DNA of 64,000 nucleotides from Kondoa subrosea (GCA_039545335.1 BCIN01000006.1:744001-808000), one strand, 5' to 3'. Counted from the first letter of the stretch, positions 1 through 26,999 are shown. Program-made: numbers and translations. The notes: a model not told the origin generated them from the letters alone.

Positions 1-1807
1 GGCATCAACATCTGGATCTAGGTCTGCCAAACCTTGCAGGACGAGAGCCCGTCCTTGTAATTCTGTTGGCATCATATTCGTCGCGGCTATCGAGTAATTC
101 TTGTTGGAGTTGATCTGCTCAAGTGGATAACCTCTTGGCCAGATATCAGAGCGTCCGAAATGCTTGTAAGGATTGATAGCAGTATCTTCGCGCATGTGAG
201 GGTTGAAGACAGTCTGGTAAAGGGGATCATCTGGGTCGAGAACACGAATTCCTGTCTTGACATCATTGATATCGTTGTCATCGTCCGTATCGAAGATAGT
301 TTCAGCACCCAGAGCAATAGCATACAGGTAACCGAGATTCTTGCGAGTGTAAGCTTTGTAAGGAATGTGACGCGGAGAGTTGAAAGGTAGGCGATATTGA
401 TCTTCGACTGACAAGAAGTAGCATGCTCCATCGTGCCAAGTCGTAGGTGTTTTAGTATCGGCTACAACTACAACATTCTGATAAAAGACGGTCAGAGAAT
501 GTTGTGCTTGCCTGAATCCAACTTACCCAATCTTCGAGAGCACAATAGTGGTCCATCACATCGGTAGGCAAAGCAATTGATGTGACAATAACCCATTGCT
601 TGTTGCCTCTTGTGTCAATTGTGGAGAAATCTAAAGTCGGCTTTGGACCAAAAGCAATGGAAACAAGGAGAAGGAAAGCGTAAAGGGCACCAGATAGCCA
701 AAGACTTCGATTAGAGGCTGGCTGCTTCTCTGCTTCTTGTCGGAAGAAAGGATTGGCCCGTTCGTTTGGAGGTGACAGAAGGAAAGATTCAGCCTCAAGG
801 GATTTGCGTTCGTCGTCATAATTGAAGGTCTTGGGTTCTGCAAAACGGGTAGCAACTTCAGGTGTTCCGAAAGGTAGTGTGGCTTCGGCTCTTTCTTCGC
901 GAATCGAGGCGAAAGGAACAACGAAAGAAATGAGGGCCACTGCTACTAATTGAAGACTGTCATTGGCCAATCTTGTGGAACCTGCAGCCTTCATCTGGTC
1001 CTGCATGAGAGCAAAGAGACTGCACGAATTCAATACGGGAAAACACCACATGAAGAAGTCTTTTACCTGATCAATGCCAGATTGACGTTCCAGCCAACAA
1101 ATGCAGACACTCTGTGTGAGCCGAAGACAGTAGCTATACCGATAATGATGATAATAAAGCACTGCAGCAGGAATCAGCAAGAGGACCTAAATTTGCATAT
1201 TTCAACTGACCTGTAAAACCCAACTTGATTGCTGCCAAAGTATGATGTCTGGAAAGATTGGGACTAGACCAATTGGAAGAGGGATAGCTGGATTGCTGAA
1301 GACGCGCAGGGGCAAAAGAGTGACGAATAGAATGCCTGAGAGATTAGCAATAGCTGTTGACGATGTTGCGAGGGTATTCTTCAGTGATGGTGTTGCGCTT
1401 GCTCGTGCGTTGTCTAGAGCTGAGAGTTGAGCTACAGCAAGTGCTGCCAGAGGTAGATGTGTGAGAAAGATGCTTGCTGTGAGCAGATTCTTCACATCTG
1501 TTTGATAAGCCAAAAGTAGCGCCAGCGCCATTTCCAGTATGCGTAGTGGTGTGATATGAGCGAGCGCCAGCGCTCTTTTGCCAGAATACTTGCGCACCAG
1601 CAGTCCTAGAGTTGTAAGGAAAACCAGTAGAGATGGATCAATCCAGACGAGATATCTCATTGCCAATTGCAGGACAACAAGAGAGGCAAAAGGATAGACA
1701 GCCAAACCAGCGGAGGAGAGCTGAAATGACGGACGCATTCCACAGCACGCGCCTAAACATCCTGCAGCTATGAGCGATCCAGCAAGTGCAGCAAGTGAAC
1801 TGTCCAT
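1..1807 (-). CDS. Multi-pass membrane domain fused to a STELLO/DUF288-like glycosyltransferase (3' end runs off the window)
   Basis: Manual splicing: exons about 1807-1211, 1161-1067, 1019-527 and 477-1, with GT-AG introns and frame preserved. C-terminal part reads KQWVIVTSIALPT...DW|NVVVVADTKTPTTW...RKNLGYLYAIALGAETIFDTDDDN...NPYKHFGRSDIWPRGYPL...QGLADLDPDVDA, which I recognise as STELLO/DUF288 motifs. N-terminal part is hydrophobic with several TM-like segments. Confidence 0.85.
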
Positions 1808-2366
1808 AGTAGGCTGTAAGAATACGTAATAGAGCAAGGAAGAAAACGAGCGAACGCTAAGAAGTCGCGACGAAAGGCAGAGACACCGAACTGATTGTTG
1901 CTTAAATGTCTTGAACGCGTCGGTAACCGCTTGAAACATTAATTCCGAATTAGACCTGATAACGGTTATGCGGCAAGCGTGAGTTAGACAAGGCAATTCA
2001 ACGTAGGCCGCATATTAAGGACGAGTAGCTGAAGACAGTGAATAATGTCAGACGAGCAGGGGGTGGATCAAGTATTGAAATAATTCGGGGGTGAAGCGCA
2101 AGACTCAAAGGCCAAAGGTATCGTACGGGAGAAACTGAGCGAGCAGCCAACTCAACGCTCGAACTCAATGTGTTAAACTTTGCCCGAGAAATACAAGTCG
2201 CTGCCAACGAAATGAGGAACTTAAAAGGGTGAGGCGTGTCCGCTCTTGCCTATACAAAGGCTCTGGTACGAATACAATGAACCTATTCGATATTAATGAG
2301 ACTGTCCAATAATATATCCGTGAAATCACAATTATCCCTATTGTTTCTTTTGCTCTCGATACGATT

Positions 2367-3713
2367 TTAGGTATATCGCTTCCTGTTCACATTTCCCGGA
2401 GATCTCGGTGTAGATGGTTCGCTCTGTTGATCACAAAGCGATATTAGAGTTAGTCAGTAGCTACAAATGTAGGCGAAAAATATCGCACCTCTTCTGCAAT
2501 AGGTGTTGGAGGACCATGACCAGCTCCTTTGATCGCTTCACCCGTCAACAAAGGCGTTGTACCAGGTGACATGGCTCTGTGTCTTCGTGCAGCTGAGGTA
2601 TCTTGTTTCCGATTCGGTGAAACCGCTGTGGAAGTAGAACTTGAAGCTGGAGTGAGATCGTTAACTTTAACTTGGACGCCTGAAGGTAATTCGTAGGAGT
2701 CGAAGAAACGAAGTCGAAGTCGATGAGCTTGTGGTAATTTGGGTAAAAGACCAAAGCATATTACGGTGAAGAGATTGAGGGAGAAAAAGTTTGGATGAAG
2801 ATCGTAGCGCACATAGTGTGTAGATAAGAGGAATCTGTTTGGTACAACGATGCTGGCATCAGCCTGGAAACTGAAGCTCCGTCATGCAGGACGAACAGTA
2901 ATATCGGCAAGGATGTCATGTATTTCCTAGCTGGCGTATGCTGTGCACCATGATCGATTTGTTCCCAAAAGGTCAAGCGATCGAAGGCGCCTCCATTAGC
3001 TGAGAAAGGTGTTCCAGTTGTGCAATGGAATACGACAAAGGTGATCTGCAGCACAAGGTAAGCACATTAAAAGAAGGAGAATGACACAGCTGACCAAGCA
3101 GTATGCTTGTACCACGAAAGTCCATGCTTTCTCTTGCGTCATGCCTGGCACTATATCGACCAAAACTTTCCCAAGCACAATCAAAATGATATGAATGACC
3201 CAAGCTCCTTTGAAGTTGACCCAATCCGCGTTGACTGTGAGTTAGGGTTACTTCCTTAGCTCTGTTGTTGCGACGCACAAGGAGAAACTCACTATTGACT
3301 AGTGCTTCTCGGTCCAAAGTCTCGTCATAAGTCTCCTGGACTTCTTGAACGCTAACAATTGAGCTCGATCTCTTCCTTCCACTTGCCCGTCCAACTGAAC
3401 CAGTTCCAGCAACAGTAGCAGCATTCGAGTCTGTTGATCCAGCTACTTCACTGCTCTCGTGCGACATTTCCGATTGGTTATTCGGGAAGTAATTGGTTGA
3501 ATGAGGGGCTGTGAGGCCGGGCGAGATAGCTGAGGTAGTAGCAGTGTGCAATTGAGCTTTAATAGAATTGTAGGATGGCTGCCGATTGGATAGTCCTCTA
3601 GGGCGAGTCTGCGTGGCAGTGGTGCTTGCTTGGGTTCCACCTGGTTGCGAGAACGACCGAGAAGGAGGCCGTAGCAGGGGAGAGGAGCCTGACTGAGATA
3701 GAACGGATGTCAT
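2367..3713 (-). CDS. ORM1: ORMDL family sphingolipid homeostasis protein
   Basis: Spliced product contains VNADWVNFKGAWVIHIILI, FHCTTGTPF..NGGAFDRLTFWEQIDHGAQHTPARKY, FLLSTHY, LLPKLPQAHRLR and a Ser-rich N-terminus. Confidence 0.93.
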
Positions 3714-4437
3714 GACTGATAGGCAAGATTTCCTTATTGCTGTTCTAGCACTGCGAGTCCGCTGTTGCTTGCAATTGAATCGTGTTCGTGAGGTGACAAG
3801 CAGCACTCAAGCAGATATCGCGGGCAAGTCAGGCGAGATTTGACACGCAACCCCGTTGTTCAAGTAAAACCGAGAGAACGAAAGCAAGCATCATTCAAAG
3901 TTGAATGTGCCACTGGTATATCATGCAAGTCAGCTAGCCTAACAGAGAAGTCCCTCTGCTATCATCCATTGTAATTCATGACTTCCCAGCTGACTGTACC
4001 AAGTCTTACATTCACCGCTTGAATGACCAGCTTTCGACTTTCGTCAATGATCTGCAGGGGTGGAAGTCTTGCAGTGACAGCACAAATTGGGCTAGAGCGA
4101 TAAAGCTAGTCATGGGATGATCGCTTCGGCTTTCGACCAGATTGCGACCGAAGCTTTCAGAATCGGAAGCTGTATCAATCAACTTCTAGTCAGTACATTA
4201 GTGGTGACAAGATTCCATGATACTCACTACCGTACTGTTCTATCTGATCTTGGTATCGAGAAGGGGCCTTGACATGTTGAGAGGAGAAGATGTTGTCTAT
4301 AGATCGGTCCCCATAGATGACTCAGAGGTGAGTACTCCTGGCGCTTTTACGCAGATCTCGTTGGAAGACTTGCAGATATTGCTAATGAGGGAATAAAGGA
4401 TGAGCTGCTACGGGTATAGCAGTTTGAGACTTGAAAT

Positions 4438-24962: not shown

Positions 24963-26999
24963 ATGAAGCAGGAATACTCACTCTTGCCAGGTTCATTGCA
25001 TACAATTGAGATTGCGCAGCACAGAGGCTAATAGACTATATAACACTATAGAGCATCAACCTCCTACACCACCTGCTTATGATATGATGGCAGCTACAAA
25101 TCGAATCTCCTCAAGGCAGCTCAGTCGACTAGTTCTAATATTAGCATTATCAAGCTTGTCCGTTGGCTTCTTTGGTCTGTCTACAGGTCGTCTGGAACTC
25201 TCTTCTCTCAATTCTCTCTTTCAAGCAAACACAACAATACCAGAACTAGAACCAGAAGTATCGCCTATCTTATCCTATGATATAACGACATGGCCGTCCC
25301 CTACGCCTGAACTACCGCTGGATGCTACTCTAGATCAGAGAATAGAAGCATGGGATGAGATGCCGATATCGACAGCTGCAAATTGGGTCAGATATAATGC
25401 GAAAGTCTGCCAACCTTCCAAAACGGATGTCAACAAGCTGGTCAGTCCTGGAAGGTTGTTGTGCTGTGCAGAGCTAAAACCTGAAACCAAACTGACAGTG
25501 GGGCTTCGTGACACCTATTGAACAAGTTAATGGACCATGGGAACGTTTTTGGAAAGATCCGGTGGATGTTGCCAAAATTAGACAAGAGATTTTCCTCTTC
25601 TTGCAAGCTCAAAGGGATGCTGGTTTTTACAATGCAACGTATCATGGAGAAGGACGAGGTATCATTTTCTCTGCTGGTAACTCTGTAAGTCTTCTCGGAA
25701 ACTAATTCGGTATGCACCGACATGGTTTTGTAATGCCTACAGGACACTTTTGATCGAGTTCTTACTACACTGAAATTGCTAAGAAACCACTTCAACACTA
25801 CTCTACCAGCCGAAATCTTCTCTTTCCCAGGCGAATCACCTCCGGCAGCACTTTTACCAGAATTTGAGAAATACAATGCCAAACTTCGATCCTTACCTTC
25901 CATATCCAAAGATCCTTCCCGCACTAAGAATTGGCATATCAAATCTGCTGCTTTGATTGAATGCTCCTTCCGTGAAGTACTCTACCTTGACTCCGACAAC
26001 ATGCCAGCCGCTTCTTTAGAAGGACCTGAATCGATATTTGAAGCACCAGGTTTCAAAAGACTTGGTGTAATGTTTTGGCCTGATTATTGGAGAACAGTTG
26101 CTCATAATCCAGTTTGGCAAATTATTGGAGTCCAGTGCAGAGATGAATGGGAACAAGAAGCGGGTCAGATCTTGATTGATAAAGCAAGACATTTGGATGC
26201 CCTACATCTGACGAATTATATGATGTTGAGGTATAAGACTTGGTTTACTATGTCTGATGGGGATAAAGATTTGTTCAGGTGAGTTATTATTCTTAAATCT
26301 GAAATATTTTGACTGATGTCCTCAACAATCGATCATAGATTCGCTATGCTTGCATTGAGGAAAAGATGGGCCATACCTGGAGCTTTCGTTGGTGCTGCTT
26401 CATGGCCAAAAGAAAGACCTTCGGATTTCTGCGCACATACAATGTTCGTGATTTGGTTCCATTAGCTTTATCTATAGCTAATGTTCACCGATATGGACAG
26501 GTTGCAACATGACCATCTAGGCAAACCGCTCTTCGTACACGCCAATATGCTGAAGAAGCTGCCTTGGACTTTACCGTTTGAAGCCAACTCTCGCGAGAAA
26601 GGCATTTGGGGCGTTACTCGTAGAGCAACTCTAGAAACACCAGAAGATGATCTGGATTGCGATCATCTGGCCAATTCCGATTTACTTGGAAACGCAATCA
26701 AAGCACCTCCCTCTCATGCTGCTCGAAGAAGAGTAGCTCTGGAAAAGGGGTTAAGAACATGGTTCCGCGCAACTAGGGAATACATGTCTTGCATCGATCA
26801 ACGGTGGGATGATCCAAGAACAGAAGATGACAAGCTTATTGACAAGTATATCCGCCAAATGGGTCCACCAGCTGCGGATGCGATCACATTCAATTCACCT
26901 ATGGTTGAAGCACTCTGGACAGAAGATGAACGACTGCAAGGTTTTGAACAGAAGTTCTGGCAATCTGGCGGTCGAACAGGTGGTCTTGGATTCTTCTAG
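24963..26999 (+). CDS. Glycosyltransferase family 71 alpha-mannosyltransferase (MNN/MNT-like)
   Basis: Type II TM anchor; GRGIIFSAGN, LPAEIFSFPGE, IKSAALIECSFREVLYLDSDNMP, MFWPDYW, EQEAGQILIDK, GDKDLFRFA, FCAHTM.Q, PLFVHANMLK. Confidence 0.9.

What the first reader, a model, noticed from the sequence alone, without database searches (positions are those of the whole stretch)
620..1807. Multi-pass membrane module fused in frame to the STELLO-like enzyme (candidate transporter-glycosyltransferase unit)
Seen: ATG 1807 (MDSSLAAL...) can be spliced through two ordinary GT-AG introns (1210-1162 and 1066-1020) into the frame encoding SLFALMQDQM...KQWVIVTS. This gives one polypeptide with roughly 280 hydrophobic residues in several TM-like segments, then a charged linker, a type II-like TM anchor (SLWLSGALYAFLLLVSIAF) and the catalytic domain. 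Established: plant STELLOs have a simple type II layout. Inference: the N-terminal module may be a degenerate nucleotide-sugar transporter (DMT fold) that supplies donor substrate or localises the enzyme in the Golgi. I could not see a diagnostic transporter motif, so this identity is a hypothesis.
Basis: partly seen in the sequence, partly recalled or inferred. Interest (0 to 1): 0.75.

Follow-up and report, generated by a model that had tools for sequence, protein, structure and literature searches.

The report
Multi-pass membrane STELLO-like glycosyltransferase gene
A fungus-like gene really does join a nine-helix membrane module of unknown kind to a STELLO-type sugar-transferring enzyme in one protein, but nothing tested shows that the module is a nucleotide-sugar transporter.

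Summary
On the minus strand, ATG 1807 and three short GT-AG introns (1210-1162, 1066-1020, and a third at 526-478) give one open frame of 554 codons that runs off the window start.

An environmental protein, P0094, confirms the model. It has 1034 aa on a 3187-nt contig, which is too short to hold the introns. It aligns to the spliced model with no gap at any of the three junctions.

The layout is about 9 hydrophobic helices (aa 1-270), a charged 66-aa linker, a type II-like anchor (aa 337-355), then the STELLO-like domain. Lys/Arg counts place the linker in the cytosol and the enzyme in the lumen.

The transporter reading is not supported. The module has no Pfam, PDB-sequence or ESM-feature match. 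The same tests do recognise an SLC35/EamA-like module fused to STELLO in an unrelated environmental eukaryote, P0095. Both AlphaFold models were unusable, so the fold is untested.

The module diverges about as fast as the linker (64% against 93% identity). I therefore favour a lineage-restricted scaffold or retention domain. The nearest named relative, from Mixia osmundae, has a similar layout.

The parts
1211..1807 (-). Exon 1 (aa 1-199): start codon at 1807-1805 and hydrophobic helices 1-6, plus a Pro-rich hydrophobic loop (aa 171-195)
   Evidence: The start is conserved: P0094 and P0093 begin at the equivalent Met.
1162..1210 (-). Intron 1, 49 nt, GT..AG, CTGAT branch-like site
   Evidence: The junction is gapless against P0094. 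P0093 loses similarity here.
1067..1161 (-). Exon 2 (aa 200-231, phase 2 at its 3' end): helices 7 and 8
   Evidence: 14/32 identical to P0094, no gap.
1020..1066 (-). Intron 2, 47 nt, GT..AG
902..1019 (-). First part of exon 3 (to aa 270): end of helix 8, loop 8, helix 9. This is the end of the multi-pass module.
704..901 (-). Charged linker, aa 271-336 (10 K/R, 13 D/E), inferred cytosolic. It contains an 18-residue stretch identical in P0094.
647..703 (-). Type II-like anchor helix, aa 337-355
   Evidence: Relatives with a single TM have it at the equivalent place.
527..646 (-). Short stem and start of the STELLO-like domain (aa 356-395)
   Evidence: BLASTP to Mixia P0004: 15/31 identical, E=7e-10. 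Alignment to P0094.
478..526 (-).
   Evidence: P0001 begins 3 residues after this junction.
1..477 (-). Exon 4 (aa 396-554 and onward), the STELLO-like catalytic region with an acidic DTDDDN motif. It runs off the window start, and about 480 more residues are expected from P0094.
   Evidence: 92 relatives, 81 of them carrying PF03385; 148/159 identical to P0094. PF03385 on P0094 residues 608-720.

Best explanation
This is one intron-bearing fungal-type gene for a polytopic membrane protein of about 1030 aa in the secretory pathway.

Shown: the exon structure; the continuous frame; a relative's uninterrupted ORF with the same order of parts; and membership of the C-terminal part in the STELLO (PF03385) family.

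Inferred from hydropathy and the positive-inside rule: nine helices with the N-terminus on the luminal side, a cytosolic charged linker, and a tenth helix that acts as the usual type II anchor. This places the STELLO-like domain and its C-terminal extension in the Golgi/ER lumen, as in plant STL1/2.

Inferred from rates: the nine-helix module is a lineage-restricted membrane domain that evolves about as fast as the linker. It most likely serves as a membrane scaffold that holds, sorts or oligomerises the enzyme, or docks it to a membrane partner. It is less likely to be a substrate-specific transporter.

My odds: the fused architecture is real, about 0.9. Given that, the module is a scaffold/retention domain rather than a transporter or other catalytic membrane domain, about 0.5.
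For: Gene model:
- three GT-AG introns of 47-49 nt and a 554-codon open frame.
- P0094, 1034 aa on a 3187-nt contig, is gapless at all three junctions.
- P0001 is identical to the tail of P0094 and starts just after junction 3.
- P0093 matches exon 1 only, and all three proteins share the same start Met.

STELLO identity:
- 92 hits, 81 with PF03385, including a protein that a source names 'probable glycosyltransferase STELLO1' (Nematostella).
- PF03385 at 73.4 bits on P0094, against a cut-off of 27.8.

Topology (K+R in odd against even loops):
- 18 against 3 in the window's protein.
- 15 against 3 in P0094, and 6 against 1 in the exon-1 part of P0093.

Rates, (window against P0094):
- Module: 171/268 identical (64%).
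- Linker: 44/66 (67%).
- Catalytic part: 148/159 (93%).
- Invariant positions are not enriched for charged or polar residues: 8/19 charged against 39/107 aliphatic.

Lineage restriction:
- A phmmer search of 1.84 billion representatives found only P0093.
- In the STELLO-domain tree, P0094+P0002 are sister to Mixia P0004 (SH-aLRT 97). P0004 also has a long multi-helix N-terminus, a linker and an anchor.
Against: - No transcript from the window's own organism was seen. No RNA run was listed.
- Helix count and topology come from my own Kyte-Doolittle windows and hand-set boundaries, not from a trained predictor. The Pro-rich hydrophobic stretch at aa 173-191 could be a tenth helix or a re-entrant loop.
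- Several polar or charged residues inside predicted helices are invariant in all three sequences (D57, R89, E92, H117, Q102-T103-D104). That is also what a transporter or membrane enzyme would show.
- A different lineage fuses a recognisable SLC35-like module at the same position, which favours a donor-supply logic.
- Fast divergence is an argument from only three sequences.
Confidence: 0.55

Rival explanations
1. The N-terminal module is a highly diverged nucleotide-sugar transporter (DMT/SLC35 fold). It imports the donor for the luminal STELLO-like domain fused to it.
For: - The layout is what such a fusion needs: polytopic module, cytosolic linker, one more helix, luminal enzyme.
- An independent STELLO-family protein, P0095/P0053, carries at the same position an N-terminus that resembles SLC35/EamA. 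Pfam EamA gives E=0.0048 at 17.6 bits, below the 28.2 cut-off. GDP-mannose transporter 5oge gives E=1.3. ESM features score 0.98-0.96 to TPT/EamA/UAA/Nuc_sug_transp clusters, with 10 of the ten best sharing a clan.
- NSTs and Golgi glycosyltransferases are reported to form complexes (PMC6453868 and PMC9368800; I saw the search listing and the start of the abstracts only).
- Invariant intramembrane polar residues.
Against: - No DMT-clan Pfam hit at E<=10.
- No PDB sequence hit to any transporter.
- No ESM-feature hit.
- No similarity to P0095's module.
- No internal 5+5 repeat signal (z=-0.40; low power).
- 9 helices with an N-out topology rather than 10 with N-in.
- The module diverges as fast as the linker, whereas NSTs are recognisable across eukaryotes (my own knowledge).
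Confidence: 0.1
2. The module is some other working membrane domain of a fold not yet catalogued. It might handle an acceptor or a lipid-linked intermediate, or dock to a polysaccharide synthase, as plant STLs bind CesA.
For: - Invariant motifs in and next to helices across three sequences of 48-68% identity.
- Plant STLs interact with membrane CesA proteins (passages of PMC4906169).
- The module persists in at least three sequence-distinct relatives, and a similar 9+1 layout with the same charge parity (24 against 5) can be drawn for Mixia (segments set by hand).
Against: - No family match of any kind.
- Homology to Mixia's N-terminus is not significant: hhalign E=0.68; Smith-Waterman z=1.2-2.2, with 13-35 of 300 shuffles reaching the score.
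- No preferential conservation of polar residues.
Confidence: 0.25
3. The fusion is a gene-model artefact. In this reading there are two genes: a small multi-pass membrane protein ending at the TGA inside 'intron 1', and a STELLO-like type II protein starting at a Met near 1003-991.
For: - The exon-1 frame does reach a stop 9 nt into intron 1.
- A Met lies at aa 236/240.
- No RNA from this organism was available.
Against: - P0094 reads through all junctions in one frame with conserved sequence on both sides.
- Only about 200 nt would separate the two genes.
- The first of the two Met residues is not conserved in P0094.
- Exon 2 would be non-coding, yet it aligns without a gap at 14/32 identity.
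Confidence: 0.04

Closest known systems
Arabidopsis STELLO1/2 (STL1/STL2; DUF288/PF03385, GT75-related), Zhang et al. 2016, PMC4906169
   Same: Same Pfam family in the luminal part. A hydrophobic anchor lies directly before the catalytic region. The inferred orientation, with the enzyme in the lumen, is the one shown experimentally for STL1/2 (passages read).
   Different: Plant STLs have a single N-terminal TM (type II). This protein has about 9 further helices and a 66-aa charged linker in front of the anchor. The function in fungi is unknown. That paper describes the fungal proteins only as distantly related.
Mixia osmundae IAM 14324 uncharacterized protein L969DRAFT_87927 (P0004, 1148 aa)
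   Same: Nearest named relative of the STELLO domain: 53% identity to the window's exon 4, and sister to P0094+P0002 with SH-aLRT 97. It also has a long multi-helix N-terminus, a charged linker, an anchor helix, then the STELLO domain.
   Different: Its N-terminal region shows no significant sequence similarity to this one. It carries a long acidic insert after helix 1 and a longer linker. Common origin of the two modules is plausible but not shown.
Environmental eukaryote proteins P0095/P0053 (1156/1083 aa): SLC35/EamA-like module fused to a STELLO domain
   Same: Same order of parts: polytopic N-terminal module, charged linker, anchor helix, STELLO domain.
   Different: Its module is recognisably DMT/SLC35-like, and ours is not. 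Its STELLO domain falls in a different, non-fungal clade, so this is an independent fusion.
Non-covalent NST-glycosyltransferase assemblies in the Golgi (e.g. SLC35A3 with MGATs; PMC6453868)
   Same: A polytopic membrane protein and a type II glycosyltransferase acting as one unit.
   Different: Those are separate polypeptides with a known transporter. Here the two are covalently joined and the membrane part is of unknown kind. I saw only the search listing and the start of the abstract.

Membership tests
STELLO glycosyltransferase family (Pfam PF03385, formerly DUF288) | Match to PF03385 above the gathering score | tested here: met
   Met on the close relative P0094: 73.4 bits against 27.8, at residues 608-720. 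That stretch lies beyond the window's edge, which is why the window's own pieces give no Pfam hit. The in-window part (exon 4) is 93% identical to P0094. It retrieves 92 proteins, 81 of which carry PF03385.
STELLO glycosyltransferase family (Pfam PF03385, formerly DUF288) | Conserved acidic DxD-like motif in the N-terminal (GT75-related) part of the domain | tested here: met
   DTDDDN is present in exon 4. The same motif, or a one-residue variant (DFDDDN), is seen in all 12 relatives printed. Its catalytic role in this protein is not tested.
STELLO glycosyltransferase family (Pfam PF03385, formerly DUF288) | Single-pass type II layout (as in plant STL1/2) | tested here: not met
   There are 9 hydrophobic segments before the anchor. 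This is a feature of the plant proteins and not of the Pfam family. Of the 94 family proteins in hand, 85 have 0-1 strong hydrophobic 19-mers and 4 have 3 or more. Many of the 94 are fragments or prokaryote-style gene calls.
STELLO glycosyltransferase family (Pfam PF03385, formerly DUF288) | Golgi localisation with a luminal catalytic domain | not testable with these tools
   Only inferred from Lys/Arg distribution and by analogy to PMC4906169.
DMT superfamily / SLC35 nucleotide-sugar transporters | Sequence match to a DMT-clan family (EamA, TPT, UAA, Nuc_sug_transp) | tested here: not met
   0 families at E<=1 for exon 1 and exon 3 products. 0 families at E<=10 for P0094 residues 1-393. Positive control: P0095's N-terminus gives EamA at E=0.0048 in the same call.
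DMT superfamily / SLC35 nucleotide-sugar transporters | Ten helices with both ends cytosolic | tested here: inconclusive
   Hydropathy gives 9 helices, and K+R parity favours a luminal N-terminus (18 against 3; 15 against 3). A tenth helix at aa 173-191 cannot be excluded. No trained topology predictor was available.
DMT superfamily / SLC35 nucleotide-sugar transporters | Internal 5+5 inverted repeat | tested here: not met
   Half 1 against half 2 gives Smith-Waterman score 30, with a shuffle mean of 32.2 (z=-0.40, 190 of 300 shuffles reach it). Power is low, because DMT halves are often unrecognisable by sequence.
DMT superfamily / SLC35 nucleotide-sugar transporters | DMT fold | not testable with these tools
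   AlphaFold2 on a 4-row alignment gave mean pLDDT 33.0 and pTM 0.20. Mixia's module folded alone gave pLDDT 46.4. No fold search was run, because such models give meaningless matches.
DMT superfamily / SLC35 nucleotide-sugar transporters | Language-model or solved-structure resemblance to NSTs | tested here: not met
   ESM Atlas features gave no usable hit for P0094 residues 1-275. For P0095 residues 1-275 they gave scores of 0.98-0.96 to SLC35-type clusters. The PDB profile search returned only an antitoxin at E=1.1.

The most novel reading that the evidence does not exclude
The nine-helix module is a transporter or donor-delivery domain of a fold not yet catalogued, or a DMT diverged beyond recognition. 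On this reading fungi of this lineage (and perhaps Mixia) and an unrelated protist lineage (P0095, with a recognisable SLC35 module) independently welded donor import to a luminal STELLO-type enzyme. That would be a natural 'Rosetta stone' for transporter-glycosyltransferase channelling in the Golgi.
Probability: 0.12. Interest if true: 0.7.

Novelty: new variant of a known kind. Interest (0 to 1): 0.42.

Why it matters
Golgi glycosyltransferases are almost all single-pass type II proteins. A STELLO-family enzyme with nine extra helices is an unusual architecture, and its membrane part has no relatives among 1.84 billion representative proteins beyond one environmental sequence.

If the module only anchors or sorts the enzyme, this is a modest curiosity of one fungal lineage. 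If it handles substrate, then together with the SLC35-STELLO fusion seen in P0095 it would be genetic evidence that donor import and transfer are physically coupled. It would also give a handle on the still unknown biochemical activity of STELLO proteins.

Two literature searches listed no paper whose title or abstract opening concerns a fungal STELLO-like protein or a natural transporter-STELLO fusion. These were 15 of 104 papers listed; 25 of 51 listed. I read listings only, apart from passages of PMC4906169.

Tried and rejected
- Whole genome of the window: none is held, so the rest of the gene and any paralogues could not be read.
- RNA evidence: no RNA holder was listed for window 1-2400, so read laying could not be used.
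- Relatives' DNA: two metagenome scans confirmed no locus, one with the exon-1 alignment A1 and one with P0094. Intron positions in relatives and the intron-less state of P0094's contig therefore rest on protein and contig lengths only.
- Word-based protein searches for the module: none at E<=0.001 among longer proteins, and none at E<=0.1 for P0094 residues 1-345.
- ESM Atlas on P0094 residues 1-275: no usable hit.
- Structure: both AlphaFold2 jobs gave unusable models, with pLDDT 33.0 and 46.4. I did not send them to fold search.
- hhalign in global mode gave a meaningless 5-column alignment. The local-mode run is the one I use.
- Alignment A2 misplaced the 31-aa exon-2 row, so it was replaced by A3 without that row.
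- Homology of this module to Mixia's N-terminus was considered, because a short shared WNV...M(R/Q)DQ...RLAN pattern appears in the local alignment. It is not accepted: hhalign E=0.68 and z=1.2-2.2.
- Functional clustering with neighbours is rejected. The 60 kb upstream holds ordinary eukaryotic genes (ORMDL-like, DUF4385, Mak10, an RFC lid, PGK, PPR, Mannosyl_trans3, PRTase, MRS2-like, HATPase_c, ABC, DUF1690) and no DMT-clan (NST) Pfam match among the ORFs scanned (stop-to-stop ORFs of 110 aa or more up to 20 kb, 150 aa or more beyond).
- Earlier findings of this scan: nothing by place or by sequence.

Full report
**What is in the sequence**

Reading 1-3000 on the minus strand shows ATG at 1807-1805. 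An open frame follows to a stop 9 nt inside a 49-nt GT..AG interval (1210-1162).

A script that removed the three intervals gave 1662 nt, or 554 codons, with no stop.

An in-frame ATG 44 codons upstream (1939-1937) also exists. Both relatives described below begin at the Met equivalent to 1807.

**Independent support for the spliced model**

No whole genome is held for the window and no RNA run was listed, so the support comes from proteins.

- The exon-4 product retrieved 92 relatives. The best, P0001, is 93% identical.
- P0001's 90% cluster holds a second member, P0094: 1034 aa on a 3187-nt JGI/IMG contig. A 3105-nt ORF on a 3187-nt contig cannot also hold about 145 nt of introns, so that ORF is uninterrupted.
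- P0094 aligns to the window's spliced translation from Met1 to the window edge. There is a single 2-residue gap at residues 20-21 and none at the three junctions. Identity is 134/197 in exon 1, 14/32 in exon 2, 111/164 in exon 3 and 148/159 in exon 4.
- P0001 is letter-for-letter the last 638 residues of P0094 and begins 3 residues after junction 3. That is what a prokaryote-style gene caller would give on an unspliced copy.
- A more distant relative is represented by P0093 (223 aa). It was the only hit of a phmmer search of exon 1 against 1.84 billion representatives, at E=4.5e-41 and 49% identity. Its similarity stops at the exon-1 end.
- P0002, the STELLO part at 73% identity, has the same listed contig length as P0093, 55,810 nt.

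I could not fetch any of these contigs. 'Spliced transcript' is therefore an inference from lengths. I take the fused reading frame as real with about 0.9 confidence. The two-gene alternative is left at about 0.04.

**Anatomy**

Kyte-Doolittle windows give nine strong hydrophobic segments within aa 1-270. The stretch aa 171-195 is Pro-rich and hydrophobic, and I treat it as a loop. A 66-residue linker follows (aa 271-336; 10 K/R, 13 D/E), then the anchor at aa 337-355, then the STELLO-like region.

Lys+Arg counts in odd against even loops favour one orientation:
- 18 against 3 in the window's protein.
- 15 against 3 in P0094, and 6 against 1 in P0093's exon-1 part.

By the positive-inside rule the N-terminus is luminal, the linker is cytosolic, and the enzyme is luminal after the tenth helix. 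That is the orientation shown experimentally for plant STL1/2, which have a single TM (passages of PMC4906169).

The helix boundaries are my own, and no trained predictor was available.

**The enzyme part**

PF03385 (STELLO) matches P0094 at residues 608-720 with 73.4 bits, against a cut-off of 27.8. That region lies beyond the window edge, which explains why the window's own pieces have no Pfam hit. Of the 92 relatives, 81 carry PF03385.

I built a quick IQ-TREE tree of 37 rows chosen from the 95 proteins in hand. The rows were the named eukaryotes, long environmental proteins and four short bacterial-type rows as outgroup. It used 498 columns and SH-aLRT support only.

- P0094+P0002 form a pair (support 100).
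- That pair is sister to the Mixia osmundae protein P0004 (support 97).
- They sit inside a fungal group with Gonapodya and Mortierellomycota (support 96).

The 58 rows left out were mostly short, unnamed environmental proteins.

**What the membrane module is**

Every family-level test on the module was negative.

- Pfam at E<=1 on the exon products and on whole P0094 and P0093.
- Pfam at E<=10 on P0094 residues 1-393.
- A profile search of PDB sequences, which returned only an antitoxin at E=1.1.
- ESM Atlas features.
- Two word-based searches.

Both AlphaFold2 runs were unusable. The 4-row alignment gave pLDDT 33.0, and Mixia's module alone gave 46.4. No fold comparison was made, so the fold remains unknown.

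The transporter idea can still be weighed against a positive control that turned up by chance. P0095/P0053 is an environmental STELLO-family protein from a non-fungal clade, and it has the same order of parts. Its N-terminus is picked up three ways:
- as EamA, at E=0.0048 (below the gathering score);
- weakly as GDP-mannose transporter 5oge, at E=1.3;
- by ESM features, at 0.98-0.96, to TPT/EamA/UAA/Nuc_sug_transp clusters, with ten of the ten best in one clan.

Our module shows none of this. It is also not similar to P0095's module (hhalign E=0.33; z=0.29) and shows no internal repeat (z=-0.40).

**Rates**

Between the window and P0094 the module is 64% identical (171/268), the linker 67% (44/66), the anchor and stem 75% (44/59) and the catalytic part 93% (148/159). 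The module is thus about as free to change as the linker.

Invariant columns among the three exon-1 sequences are no richer in charged residues (8/19) than in aliphatic ones (39/107). Several intramembrane polar residues are nevertheless invariant.

Mixia's N-terminus also admits a 9+1 helix drawing with the same charge parity (24 against 5, with segments set by hand). Its sequence similarity to ours is not significant (BLASTP; hhalign E=0.68; 13-35 of 300 shuffles reach the score). Given the sister position in the tree, a common origin is plausible but not shown.

**Reading**

I commit to a single polytopic, luminally oriented STELLO-type enzyme. Its nine-helix module is a lineage-restricted, loosely constrained membrane scaffold that acts in retention, oligomerisation or docking. 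I put this at about 0.5 given that the architecture is real.

The other readings are a non-catalogued working membrane domain (about 0.25), a diverged NST (about 0.1) and a gene-model artefact (about 0.04).

How rare the layout is:
- Of the 94 STELLO-family proteins in hand, 4 have three or more strong hydrophobic 19-mers: P0004, P0094, P0053 and P0095. These represent three genes. A further 85 have none or one.
- Of the 39 proteins in which my motif for the domain start was found, 35 have 0-1 hydrophobic segments before it.
- Many of these proteins are fragments or prokaryote-style gene calls that would miss upstream exons. The rarity is therefore an upper-bound impression, not a measured frequency.

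**Surroundings**

The 60 kb upstream holds ordinary eukaryotic genes with small introns. They include an ORMDL-family gene directly upstream on the same strand, DUF4385, Mak10, an RFC lid domain, PGK, PPR, a Mannosyl_trans3 (fungal-type) gene, a PRTase, MRS2-like, a histidine-kinase ATPase piece, ABC and DUF1690. None of the ORFs scanned there matched a DMT-clan (NST) family, and nothing suggests a functional cluster.

**Literature**

One search found 104 papers and listed 15. One search found 51 and listed 25. One search found 7 and listed all 7. None of the listed titles or abstract openings concerns a fungal STELLO-like protein or a natural transporter-STELLO fusion. Apart from passages of PMC4906169, I read listings only. 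Supplementary Fig. 1b of that paper (the phylogeny with fungal relatives) was not seen.

Noticed in passing
not in the window; proteins P0095 (1156 aa, ENA) and P0053 (1083 aa, JGI/IMG): An environmental, non-fungal STELLO-family protein carries an SLC35/EamA-like nucleotide-sugar-transporter module at its N-terminus, followed by a charged linker, an anchor helix, the STELLO domain and a weak Glyco_tranf_2_4 match. It appears to be a natural transporter-glycosyltransferase fusion. None of the listed results of my three searches describes such a fusion.
   Followed up: partly
window 2365-3806, minus strand: The gene directly upstream ends with an ORMDL-family match (E=2.2e-05, just below the gathering score). 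It seems to carry a long Ser/Thr-rich N-terminal extension, seen in the ORF at 2973-3806. Its exon structure was not worked out.
   Followed up: no
window 1937-1939, minus strand: An in-frame ATG lies 44 codons upstream of the ATG at 1807, with no stop between them. The relatives P0094 and P0093 start at the equivalent of 1807, so this is probably a leader or uORF-type ATG. An N-terminally extended isoform is not excluded.
   Followed up: partly
window 704-901, minus strand (linker, aa 271-336): Inside an otherwise fast-changing linker, 18 consecutive residues (an acidic, Ser-containing stretch starting NYDDER) are identical between the window and P0094. This could be a sorting or phosphorylation signal.
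   Followed up: no
protein P0002 (395 aa, on a 55,810-nt environmental contig): Its last ~60 residues lose all similarity to P0094 right after a conserved motif of the C-terminal domain. This suggests a further intron in that relative which a prokaryote-style gene call read through.
   Followed up: no
window 25734-26279, plus strand: An ORF matches Mannosyl_trans3 (PF11051, E=4.4e-22), a fungal-type Golgi mannosyltransferase family. This fits a fungal origin for the window.
   Followed up: no
proteins P0094 (about 790-1034), P0006, P0007 and P0090: The region after the PF03385 match is conserved from this lineage to Mortierellomycota and to diatom-like sequences, but has no Pfam family. It is a second uncharacterised luminal domain of long STELLO proteins.
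   Followed up: no
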